From a virus (Duplodnaviria > Heunggongvirae > Uroviricota > Caudoviricetes): 50,856 bases of DNA. Shown here piece after piece: positions 56-626 of the stretch; the first letter of the stretch is position 1, and the number at the start of each line of letters is the position of its first letter. The position numbers were made by a program, and so were the translations under genes. The notes under the pieces are model-generated. The model was not told the origin of the DNA and ran no database searches. It saw only the letters and a list, made by a program, of their open reading frames with translations. Location of the stretch: IMG/VR virus record IMGVR_UViG_3300033233_000013, positions 1-50,856 of that record. One strand, written 5' to 3'.

Positions 56-626
56 CGATCGCTTCCGCGATACGGGTGCTCTCGTCACCTTCGGCTCGCT
101 CGTGACGCTGCGGTGTGCCAAACTCCTCCATCCCGGCTCGCTGTTGGTGATCGGTGCTCTCGCGTTCTCGGCTCGCTTGCGGTATGCGTCATGCAATTCA
201 CCTCCCCGGCTCGCTGCTGCGCATGGGGTGCTGCTCCTCCTTTTCGGCTCGCTGCTGATGTGGCGGTGCTCGTTGACATCCCGGGCTCGCTTCGGATGAG
301 CGGCGCTCTTCCATCCCTCCGGCTCGCTGTTGAAGTGGTGGTGCCCTGAACGTTCCCGGCTCGCTTCTCTGGGTCGGTGCTCTCGGCATGGACAGGCTCG
401 CTTGGTCTTTCCGGTTCCCTTGCGATGCGCGTGGCTCGCTCGTACGTGGGCGGTGCCCTTCACATCTTCGGCTCGCTGATCCGCGAATGGTGCTCTTCAA
501 CCTCGGGGCTCGCTTGATACAGGCGGTGGCGCCTTCGTCTTTAGTGGCTCGCTTCAGTCCCTCGGTGCCCTTCGATTAACCGGCTCGCTTGAGATTCTTT
601 GGTTCTCTATTTTCCGTTGGCTCGCC
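56..626 (-). ncRNA. TIGR-like dual-repeat guide array, downstream copy (15 units)
   Basis: GGCTCGCT (minus AGCGAGCC) at 93,135,170,208,246,284,321,358,395,433,470,507,546,582, GGCTCGCC at 619, degenerate copy at 56. A second repeat (plus YGGTGCYC, minus GRGCACCR) lies mid-unit. Spacing 35-42 nt, mostly 37-38; the two ~9-10-nt variable segments per unit are all different. Confidence 0.88.

What the first reader, a model, noticed from the sequence alone, without database searches (positions are those of the whole stretch)
85..626. Spacers are low-GC and several reconstructed targets read like a Shine-Dalgarno plus start codon: possible RNA-guided repressor
Seen (hand counts, boundary-dependent): spacers of the downstream array are ~54% GC against ~70% in flanking genes; spacer A is ~70% purine, spacer B ~50%. 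About 7 of 21 A-spacers contain GGAGG, GAGG or AGGTGA. Joining A with reverse-complemented B (the geometry I recall for TIGR) gives AAAAGGAGGA-GCTGCGCATG (unit 208-253), GGGAGGTGAA-TGCGGTATGC (170-215) and GAGGGATGGA-TCGGATGAG (284-328). Inference: a nuclease-less effector aimed at gene starts or 5' regulatory DNA would act as a programmable silencer or roadblock (conceptually like TnpB-derived TldR repressors) rather than a cutter.
Basis: inference. Interest (0 to 1): 0.72.

Follow-up and report, generated by a model that had tools for sequence, protein, structure and literature searches.

The report
Phage TIGR-TasA guide array, SD-like spacers
This is a guide-RNA array of a known kind (TIGR) next to its nuclease-free partner protein TasA in an uncultured sediment phage; its spacers really are purine-rich and often look like ribosome-binding sites, but no test showed they are aimed at gene starts.

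Summary
Window 63-626 is the downstream half of a dual-repeat TIGR array on the minus strand (edge AGCGAGCC, loop RGRGCACC, 15 units). Six more units lie at 2048-2283. Both flank a 466-aa Tas protein that has no nuclease domain (TasA type). The host element is a 115-kb temperate high-GC myophage.

A spacers are 54% GC and 71% purine, B spacers 57% GC and 54% purine, and 7 of 21 A spacers carry GGAGG, GAGG or AGGTGA.

- **Purine bias:** strong (p 3e-8).
- **SD-like motif excess:** modest (7 against 3.4 in shuffles, P about 0.02, motif set chosen post hoc).
- **SD plus ATG in joined targets:** disappears when B partners are permuted (P 0.4-0.6).
- **Low spacer GC:** a family-wide trend, not special to this locus.
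- **Other arrays:** 2,212 units with the same edge repeat show no SD excess, and the closest relative (84% identical TasA) has none in 11 A spacers.
- **Targets:** none in the phage's own genome. One exact IMG/VR match lies on a gene start but is within chance.

A 2026 preprint (10.64898/2026.09.09.750476) already shows other TasA proteins act as RNA-guided repressors. The locus is a new member of a known kind. Gene-start targeting is unproven here.

The parts
63..626 (-). Downstream TIGR array. It has 15 units of 35-42 nt (edge AGCGAGCC, spacer A, loop RGRGCACC, spacer B). It starts directly after the tas stop codon with a 5'-variant edge (GGCGAGCC) and ends with a 3'-degenerate edge (AGCGATCG, 56-63).
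   Evidence: The array is identical in two other assemblies. The repeat consensus is shared with more than 2,200 units elsewhere.
627..2027 (-). tasA: a 466-aa Nop-domain Tas protein with no nuclease domain (P0001).
   Evidence: NCBIfam NF052498 scores 127 bits against a cutoff of 100. The profile matches TasR 9mty at E 7e-19 and TasH at 5e-9. Foldseek top hits are TasR and TasH.
2048..2283 (-). Upstream TIGR array. It has 6 full units plus a final edge repeat (2048-2055) that lies 20 nt before the tas ATG. The first edge is 5'-degenerate (AATGAGCC).
1287..1586 (-). Codons for the roughly 100-aa insertion (residues 148-247) after the helix-hairpin-helix. It is found only in this protein and its 84% relative. 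It is predicted beta-rich at low confidence and has no family or nuclease match.
666..689 (-). Codons for Y447 to H454, a Y-x6-H pair in the flexible C-terminal loop. The spacing matches the SpTasH pre-tigRNA processing residues Y289 and H296.
   Evidence: H454 is invariant and the Y447 column is aromatic (mostly Y; W or F in some sequences) in alignment A1. The SpTasH residues are taken from PMC13421893. The loop is described.
292..328 (-). Unit 328 (A GGAGGGATGGA, B GCTCATCCGA). Its joined target has one exact match, with a 1-bp gap, in an IMG/VR phage contig.
178..253 (-). Units 253 and 215, the other two 'SD plus ATG' examples. Unit 215 lacks a recognisable loop repeat.
   Evidence: There were no exact IMG/VR matches.
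1..36 (-). Start of a 28-codon, highly acidic ORF that follows the array. It runs off the window and continues at the contig end, where a hairpin terminator-like stem follows it.

Best explanation
The region is the guide-RNA array of a phage-encoded, dual-repeat TIGR-TasA system.

**Shown.**
- Two arrays with the same repeats flank a Nop-domain Tas gene on the same strand. The locus sits in the replication and lysogeny module of a 115-kb temperate myophage from sediment.
- The protein has the Tas core, the coiled coil and a Y-x6-H loop like the one that self-processes pre-tigRNA in TasH. It has no nuclease domain.

**Inferred from published work on other Tas proteins.**
- The operon (array, tas, array, small ORF, hairpin) is transcribed from the minus strand.
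- TasA dimers cut the transcript inside the edge repeats into tigRNAs of about 36-40 nt.
- Spacer A pairs with one DNA strand and spacer B with the other strand of an adjacent site. The target reads A + reverse-complement(B), about 18-22 bp, with no PAM.
- The complex binds without cutting, so it acts as a roadblock or repressor.

**Targets and spacer composition.**
- The natural targets are unknown and are not in the phage itself.
- The purine-rich, SD-like look of the A spacers is a real peculiarity of this one array.
- It is best read as a composition and descent effect: A spacers share k-mers, the spacers mutate fast, and the nearest relative lacks the bias. It is not demonstrated aiming at ribosome-binding sites.
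For: **Family membership.**
- NCBIfam TIGR_Tas_endo scores above its cutoff.
- The alignment profile hits TasR 9mty at E 7e-19 and TasH at 5e-9.
- Foldseek's top ten are all TasR or TasH chains at probability 1.0.

**Array grammar.**
- 20 exact edge copies lie in the two arrays against about 5 expected by chance window-wide.
- The units alternate edge and loop, both of the form AG..CC(R).
- The grammar matches the consensus of 2,212 unique units from 143 loci.

**No nuclease.**
- The N-terminus is about 60 aa, disordered and basic.
- The insertion at 148-247 has no Pfam hit and only generic beta-fold neighbours at TM below 0.5.

**Processing and context.**
- The Y447/H454 spacing equals SpTasH Y289/H296.
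- Phage context is shown by integrase, DnaC-like loader, replication initiator, sheath, baseplate, capsid and terminase.
- Published function: TasA binds 36-nt tigRNAs (PMC12045711). TasA and dead TasR repress transcription reversibly (preprint).

**SD-likeness is not shown to be functional.**
Against: - No RNA data exist for this phage, so transcription, processing and the strand are inferred.
- Units are irregular (35-42 nt against 36 nt in 76% of family units). Two to four loop repeats are degenerate (units 215, 2093, 142, 553). Some units may be dead, or the rules may differ in this clade.
- The A-spacer purine bias (71%) is an outlier. Only 2.8% of 141 loci reach 68%, and none reaches 33% SD-like spacers. 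The k-mer sharing is only P 0.01-0.05, so a composition or descent by-product does not fully explain it.
- Spacer GC (53-58%) is well below even this phage's short intergenic DNA (67.5%). Some selective force acts on the spacers.
- The 100-aa insertion has unknown function.
Confidence: 0.67

Rival explanations
1. A substantial share of the guides is aimed at ribosome-binding-site and start-codon DNA of host or competitor-phage genes. Spacer A matches the sense-strand Shine-Dalgarno sequence and spacer B pairs across the start codon. TasA then silences genes at their 5' ends.
For: - The A core is 71% purine while B is balanced, which is what a sense-strand SD followed by ordinary sequence would give.
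- 7 of 21 A spacers are SD-like against 3.4 expected.
- Spacer GC is far below both coding and intergenic GC of the phage.
- The only exact IMG/VR match among five targets scanned lies exactly on an ATGA stop/start overlap. The GAGG sits 15 nt upstream of the start of a 146-aa ORF in a 56.6-kb phage contig. The match is in the expected geometry with a 1-bp gap, which is tolerated. The wrong-geometry control gave no hit.
- TasA repression has been shown for other systems.
Against: - SD plus ATG pairing is not above permuted A/B partners (P 0.37-0.57).
- There is no SD excess across 2,212 family units (3.7% against 5.4% shuffled).
- The nearest relative has 0 of 11 SD-like A spacers, and the orthologous spacer of unit 514 has lost its GAGG.
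- Low spacer GC is family-wide.
- By my rough estimate one exact 20-mer hit per IMG/VR scan is expected at about 0.3-0.4 by chance. A string that looks like SD plus ATG will land on gene starts by its nature. The other 20 targets are at chance level in that contig.
- Tas targeting is symmetric for A and B in TasR, so a bias in A only needs a further assumption.
Confidence: 0.12
2. The SD-like stretches act in cis in the array transcript rather than as guides. They would be ribosome-binding sites for tiny ORFs, or ribosome-loading and anti-termination elements, that keep the long untranslated array and the downstream genes expressed.
For: - Read in the RNA sense, three units carry an SD plus ATG at proper spacing (at 240, 205 and 2084).
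- Two of them are exactly the units whose loop repeat is degenerate.
- The one in the last upstream unit opens a 10-codon ORF that stops 14 nt before the tas ATG, just ahead of the tas SD.
- Both arrays end directly in real RBS-plus-start sequences, for tas and for the 28-aa acidic ORF.
Against: - The small ORFs are not conserved in the relative L001 (its ATG has no SD and a different frame).
- Three occurrences are few, and no test against chance was made beyond the SD statistics.
- There is no expression data.
Confidence: 0.05
3. The system cuts after all. Either the unexplained 100-aa insertion is, or recruits, a nuclease, or TasA works with a separately encoded nuclease. The array would then be an interference weapon rather than a silencer.
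For: - The insertion (148-247) is His-rich and has no assigned fold.
- NCBI's family name for the matching model is 'RNA-guided endonuclease'.
- SbcCD-like and SNF2 genes lie within 10 kb.
Against: - There is no Pfam, PDB or Atlas nuclease match for the insertion.
- The NCBIfam model covers only the Nop core (profile positions 1-96 in the best stretch).
- TasA proteins tested so far bind but do not cut.
- The neighbours are ordinary phage replication and recombination genes.
Confidence: 0.06
4. The array is decaying. Spacers drift freely and some units no longer make working guides, so their composition carries no functional message.
For: - Unit lengths are irregular and several loops are degenerate.
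- Spacers at orthologous positions are only 57% identical to the relative against a 45% null. tas fourfold sites are 71% identical against 46% by chance. Spacers therefore change at least as fast as silent sites.
Against: - Edge repeats are perfectly kept in 20 of 22 copies and are identical in the relative.
- tas is intact with GC3 of 0.91.
- Spacer GC (about 55%) differs from intergenic DNA (67.5%), which argues against free drift.
- Some spacers are conserved (10 of 10 and 9 of 11).
Confidence: 0.1

Closest known systems
Dual-repeat TIGR-TasA systems (for example Flavonifractor plautii FpTasA; Faure et al. 2025, Science, PMC12045711)
   Same: [quoted passage not shown]
- Arrays lie on both sides of tas. 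They begin with a 5'-degenerate edge and end with a 3'-degenerate edge followed by a hairpin.
- The Tas protein is a solo Nop domain with a coiled coil and no nuclease.
- The element is phage-borne.
   Different: - The boxes read AG...CC(R) instead of UG...CCA.
- Units are 35-42 nt with 9-12-nt spacers rather than a fixed 36 nt.
- TasA carries a 100-aa insertion after the helix-hairpin-helix and a second insertion of about 60 aa. Dual-repeat Tas proteins are described as compact.
- There is no ParB-like partner gene.
TasA and catalytically dead TasR shown to be RNA-guided transcriptional repressors (MbTasA, CsTasR; Xu et al. 2026 bioRxiv 10.64898/2026.09.09.750476)
   Same: Both are nuclease-free Tas effectors guided by dual-spacer RNAs. 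The expected outcome is reversible binding and a transcription block.
   Different: [quoted passage not shown] This one is a dual-repeat phage system that keeps it.
- Repression was shown with reprogrammed guides. Natural targets are unknown there as here.
TldR (TnpB-derived) and dCas9/Cas12-type natural or engineered RNA-guided repressors
   Same: The concept is the same: an RNA-guided DNA binder without cleavage that blocks transcription.
   Different: - The protein fold is unrelated (Nop/IS110-like, not RuvC/TnpB).
- There is no PAM or TAM.
- Two short spacers read both DNA strands.
- The system carries a multi-guide array rather than a single guide with a fixed conserved target.
IS110/IS1111 bridge-RNA recombinases
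   Same: The RNA-binding domain is shared (weak Pfam Transposase_20 and NCBIfam IS110 hits at the helix-hairpin-helix; IS621 and ISCro4 appear in profile and fold hits).
   Different: There is no RuvC-like DEDD domain and no serine Tnp catalytic domain. The guide source is an array rather than a single bridge RNA. The scores are far below the family cutoffs.

Membership tests
TIGR-Tas system | A Tas protein with the Nop-type RNA-binding core and a coiled coil | tested here: met
   NF052498 scores 127 bits against a cutoff of 100. The profile matches 9mty TasR at E 7e-19 and TasH at 5e-9. Foldseek's top ten hits are TasR or TasH. Long helices 59-119 are modelled at pLDDT of about 90.
TIGR-Tas system | An adjacent array of two alternating short repeats (edge, loop) separating two short spacers per unit of about 36 nt | tested here: met
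   There are 21 units with an 8-nt edge, an 8-nt loop and spacers of 9-13 nt. The mean period is about 37.5 nt. The period is irregular compared with the family (76% exactly 36 nt).
TIGR-Tas system | Box C- and box D-like motifs that are the same in edge and loop repeats | tested here: met
   Both repeats start with AG and end with CC, followed mostly by a purine. The family consensus is AGCGAGCC-R and AGARAACC-R. The letters differ from the published UG/CCA.
TIGR-Tas system | The array is transcribed and processed into unit-length tigRNAs bound by Tas | not testable with these tools
   No RNA run holds this phage. This needs small-RNA sequencing of a pull-down.
Dual-repeat (self-processing) Tas clade | A C-terminal loop with a conserved Tyr/His pair | tested here: met
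   Y447 and H454 are 7 residues apart, as are SpTasH Y289 and H296. H454 is invariant and the Y447 column is aromatic (mostly Y; W or F in some sequences) across 20 homologues. This is sequence-level evidence only.
TasR / TasH (nuclease-bearing Tas) | An N-terminal RuvC or HNH nuclease domain | tested here: not met
   The N-terminal 60 residues are short and disordered. There is no Pfam nuclease hit, and the matches to 9mty and TasH cover only the Nop part. The protein is therefore TasA type.
tasParB-tasA operons (Faure et al. 2025) | A ParB-like gene in an operon with tasA | tested here: not met
   The neighbours are a 147-aa unknown protein, a DnaC-like loader, a replication initiator, a 28-aa acidic ORF, a 154-aa unknown protein and an SNF2 helicase. 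None has a ParB hit.
   The SD-like excess is modest. The pairing signal is absent. There is no family-wide signal and none in the relative. The host is unknown. The one exact hit lies at a gene start but is within chance expectation.

The most novel reading that the evidence does not exclude
This phage's TasA array is genuinely biased toward ribosome-binding-site DNA. Spacer A reads the sense-strand Shine-Dalgarno sequence and spacer B the start-codon side, so the complex parks on the 5' ends of genes of competing phages or the host. The exact match at the ATGA stop/start junction in IMGVR_UViG_3300044837_000080 would then be a first natural protospacer. That would give the first natural target class for any TIGR system. 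It would also imply an A/B asymmetry in how targets are chosen.
Probability: 0.1. Interest if true: 0.7.

Novelty: new member of a known kind. Interest (0 to 1): 0.33.

Why it matters
Natural targets and biological roles of TIGR-Tas systems are still unknown; the 2026 preprint says so explicitly. This locus would matter if its spacers could be tied to a class of sites. As it stands, it adds four things.

- It is a complete, well-placed example: a temperate high-GC myophage with identical arrays in three assemblies. Its TasA is unusual, with a 100-aa insertion and irregular unit lengths.
- It has a diverged orthologous array. That comparison shows spacers changing by point substitution at least as fast as silent sites while the repeats stay fixed. 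This bears on the open question of how TIGR spacers arise.
- It supplies a family-wide baseline for checking future claims about spacer content: the repeat consensus, spacer GC pulled toward 50%, and no SD excess.
- It yields a testable candidate protospacer at a gene start.

The general repressor idea is already published.

Tried and rejected
- **Self-targeting.** All 21 targets in both geometries have at least 3 mismatches (17-23 nt targets) to the 114.9-kb phage. The summed mismatches equal shuffles in the expected geometry (106 against 109 +/- 3).
- **Targets in 2.4 Mb of other TIGR-bearing phage and metagenome loci.** Nothing had 2 or fewer mismatches in the expected geometry. One 18-of-19 match in the wrong geometry lies inside a membrane-permease-like gene of a Streptosporangiaceae MAG. 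I judged it chance.
- **Family-wide exact 18-bp targets in those flanks.** Two hits against 0.45 expected from permuted partners, which is not significant.
- **IMG/VR exact scans.** Five real targets gave one hit, and one wrong-geometry control gave none. I estimate the chance expectation at roughly 0.3-0.4 per scan, so I claim nothing from it. The other 20 targets are at chance in the hit contig.
- **Shared spacers with about 2,900 other units.** None beyond shuffles.
- **tas homologues in isolated phages and plasmids.** None. A peptide-pattern scan of IMG/VR also found none.
- **Host identification.**
  - The phage has no tRNAs.
  - Capsid relatives are all unnamed metagenome proteins.
- **RNA evidence.** No RNA holder is listed. 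The only run is the sediment DNA sample that may be the source.
- **Rfam.** No family matched.
- **Promoter and terminator consensus scan.** No sigma-70-like promoter was found. The hairpins after the acidic ORF lack a T tract.
- **Insertion domain.** There was no Pfam hit, and Atlas neighbours were below TM 0.5.
- **PHROG search of the ORFs at the IMG/VR hit.** No family.

Full report
**What is there.** Read on the minus strand, window 63-626 is a run of 15 units. Each unit is AGCGAGCC, a spacer of about 10 nt, a loop repeat fitting RGRGCACC, and a second spacer of about 10 nt.
- The run starts on the base after the stop codon of a 466-codon gene (627-2027, minus).
- A second run of 6 units with the same repeats lies upstream at 2048-2283. 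It ends with an edge repeat 20 nt before the gene's ATG.
- The first edge of each run is degenerate at its 5' side. The last edge of the downstream run is degenerate at its 3' side. Faure et al. 2025 describe this for TIGR arrays.
- Downstream come a 28-codon, very acidic ORF with a good SD, then two GC-rich hairpins.

**The protein.**
- It scores above cutoff for NCBIfam TIGR_Tas_endo (127 against 100 bits). Pfam gives only a sub-threshold hit to the IS110 helix-hairpin-helix.
- A 20-sequence profile finds the solved TasR (9mty, E 7e-19) and TasH (5e-9), then the IS621 and ISCro4 recombinases.
- In the AlphaFold model the core is confident. Its ten best PDB fold matches are all TasR or TasH chains.
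- There is no N-terminal RuvC or HNH domain. Most homologues are 260-350 aa solo-Nop proteins.
- Two things are unusual. The first is a 100-aa insertion (148-247) right after the helix-hairpin-helix, shared only with one 84%-identical relative. It is poorly modelled and has no Pfam or nuclease-like structural neighbour. The second is an insertion of about 60 aa (267-330) shared with a subset of homologues.
- The C-terminal loop keeps a Tyr and an invariant His seven residues apart (Y447, H454). That is the spacing of the SpTasH pre-tigRNA processing residues Y289 and H296.
- By these criteria the protein is a TasA of the dual-repeat, self-processing kind.

**Context.**
- The window is the first 50.9 kb of a single 114,856-bp virus record at 68.7% GC.
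- The record's first 126 nt recur near its end. The ends lie inside the array, so the assembly broke there.
- Two other assemblies carry the same Tas protein with identical arrays in one piece.
- The element is a temperate myophage. It encodes an integrase, a DnaC-like loader and a replication initiator next to the upstream array. It also encodes SbcCD-like proteins, a methyltransferase, terminase, tail fibre, baseplate, sheath and major head protein.
- The only sequencing run found is a sediment metagenome. The host is unknown.

**Checking the observation.**
- A spacers are 54% GC and 71% purine.
- B spacers are 57% GC and 54% purine.
- The tas gene is 70% GC.
- Exactly 7 of 21 A spacers carry GGAGG, GAGG or AGGTGA.
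- The purine bias of A survives removal of the first and last spacer bases, which are semi-conserved in this repeat family (127 of 180, p 3e-8; A versus B p 3e-5).
- The SD-like motif excess is weaker: 7 against 3.4 (within-spacer shuffles, P 0.019) or 2.8 (pooled, P 0.008). The motif set was chosen after seeing the data.
- A spacers share 6-mers more than shuffles do (9 pairs against 3.6, P 0.014), so the seven are not independent.

**Target geometry.** Faure et al. report 8-nt 3' overhangs. Only the arrangement in which one strand reads spacer A followed by the reverse complement of spacer B gives 3' overhangs. That is my derivation. Gaps of 1-2 bp are tolerated.

**SD plus start codon.**
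- In that geometry 3 units read SD then ATG (4 if GTG is counted).
- Keeping both spacer sets but permuting which B follows which A gives 2.2 (3.7 with GTG) on average, P 0.37-0.57.
- The apparent RBS-plus-start look therefore follows from SD-like A spacers plus several CAT-containing B spacers. It does not come from specific A/B pairs.
- In unit 253 the ATG comes from a palindromic CATG.
- Unit 215 has no recognisable loop repeat, so its boundaries are arbitrary.

**Independent samples.**
- The edge repeat AGCGAGCC turned out to be widespread.
- From these I extracted 3,018 units (2,212 unique 36-nt units, 143 loci with six or more).
- The family consensus is AGCGAGCC-R-N8-G-AGARAACC-R-N8-G.
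- SD-like A spacers are slightly depleted in this family (3.7% against 5.4% in shuffles). A purine averages 52% and B purine 57%. No locus reaches 33% SD-like A spacers, and only 2.8% reach 68% A purine. This array is a true outlier, but the feature is not a property of the system.
- Spacer GC tracks locus GC with slope 0.67. For a 68.7% GC phage the family predicts 57%, which is what is seen. 'Low-GC spacers' is thus a general trait. It may reflect easier melting of PAM-less targets or the composition of the targets, and it does not single out this locus. Spacer GC is nonetheless far below this phage's own short intergenic DNA (67.5%), so the spacers are not simply drifting.

**The nearest relative.**
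- A 3.3-kb contig encodes an 84%-identical TasA with the same repeats and arrays on both sides.
- Units are recognisably orthologous by position. One A spacer is identical (GAAGATGTGA), one B spacer matches 9 of 11, and others match 7-8 of 11.
- Overall identity at matching positions is only 57% against a 45% null. tas fourfold-degenerate sites are 71% identical against 46% at saturation.
- Spacers therefore change by point substitution at least as fast as silent sites, while the edge repeats are identical.
- Its 11 A spacers are 54% purine and none is SD-like. The orthologue of unit 514 has lost the GAGG.
- This argues against a conserved class of RBS targets, unless the targets differ between the two phages.

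**Searching for targets.**
- Nothing in the phage itself matches better than shuffled spacers in the expected geometry.
- Nothing beyond chance was found in 2.4 Mb of other TIGR-bearing loci, either for this array or for the whole family.
- Exact scans of IMG/VR for five joined targets gave one hit.
  - The target of unit 328 occurs with a 1-bp gap at 27968-27988 of a 56.6-kb, 58.5% GC phage contig.
  - It lies exactly over an ATGA stop/start overlap. The GAGG sits 15 nt before the start of a 146-aa zinc-ribbon-like ORF.
  - This is suggestive, but I do not count it as support, for four reasons.
    - By my rough estimate an exact 20-mer with three gap options on two strands is expected about 0.3-0.4 times by chance in a collection of that size.
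    - A string that resembles SD plus ATG will tend to fall on gene starts anyway.
    - The other 20 targets are at chance in that contig.
    - The ORFs there have no known family.
  - The wrong-geometry control found nothing, which is also what chance predicts.

**How it most likely works.** The operon is transcribed from the minus strand. TasA dimers bind the AG..CC boxes of edge and loop repeats and cut within the edge repeats using the Tyr/His loop. Each tigRNA of about 36-40 nt then directs the dimer to a site of about 20 bp, with the two spacers pairing to opposite strands. With no nuclease, the result is binding.
- Every step is inferred from published work on FpTasA, TaTasR, SpTasH, MbTasA and PlTasA.
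- What was shown here is family membership, the array grammar, the missing nuclease and the retained processing residues.

**Comparison and novelty.**
- The idea that a nuclease-less Tas is a programmable silencer was demonstrated in a September 2026 preprint for other TasA and dead TasR proteins. The same preprint states that natural targets remain unknown.
- This locus is a new member of that known kind.
- Its variant features are the 100-aa insertion in a dual-repeat TasA, the irregular unit length and the AG/CC boxes.
- The gene-start targeting hypothesis remains open at low probability.

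Noticed in passing
window 1-126 and contig 114710-114856 (L364 14710-14856): The contig's first 126 nt recur near its end, and the last 21 nt then diverge inside spacer A of unit 142. The record's ends therefore lie inside the TIGR array. This is an assembly break at the repeats, or a variant junction. Two other assemblies read straight through with the same units.
   Followed up: partly
window 1-36 (-), continuing at contig 114659-114745; L365 11992-12078: A 28-codon ORF with a strong SD directly follows the last, degenerate edge repeat. 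It encodes a peptide made almost entirely of Asp and Glu. Two GC-rich hairpins follow it. Whether it is real, or part of the system, is unknown.
   Followed up: no
window 1287-1586 (-), residues 148-247 of P0001: A 100-aa insertion, His-rich and predicted beta-rich, follows the helix-hairpin-helix of TasA. It is present only here and in the 84% relative. One distant homologue (P0065) has a shorter Cys-rich insertion at the same point. Both proteins with the 100-aa insertion have arrays with irregular unit lengths (35-42 nt).
   Followed up: partly
window 63-626 and 2048-2283 versus L001 1417-1672 and 3074-3277: The orthologous arrays of two phages keep unit order and identical edge repeats. 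Their spacers differ by point substitutions: 57% identity against 71% at tas fourfold sites. L001 has one extra unit that looks like a local duplicate of its neighbour. This suggests TIGR spacers diversify by mutation and unit duplication rather than by acquisition.
   Followed up: partly
loci L002-L360: The 8-nt edge repeat AGCGAGCC is shared by hundreds of arrays in viral and metagenome contigs from 35% to 70% GC. The unit consensus is AGCGAGCC-R-N8-G-AGARAACC-R-N8-G. Spacer GC is pulled toward 50% (slope 0.67 on locus GC).
   Followed up: yes
G001 (IMGVR_UViG_3300044837_000080) 27968-27988; L367 250-270: There is an exact match, with a 1-bp gap, to the joined target of unit 328. It lies on an ATGA stop/start overlap before a 146-aa ORF with CxxC pairs. 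The match is within chance expectation but is a concrete site to test.
   Followed up: partly
window 2042-2074 (-): The last upstream unit has lost its loop repeat. In the RNA sense it reads SD, then ATG, then a 10-codon ORF whose TGA lies 14 nt before the tas ATG, just ahead of the tas SD. This could couple translation into tas. It is not conserved in L001.
   Followed up: partly
L259 6480-6600 and 7140: Many single hits of the three-edge pattern in Streptomyces and other high-GC genomes are not TIGR arrays. In L259 the hit is a short tandem duplication at a gene start. An 18-of-19 match to unit 177's wrong-geometry target lies in the membrane-permease-like gene just upstream of that duplication.
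   Followed up: partly
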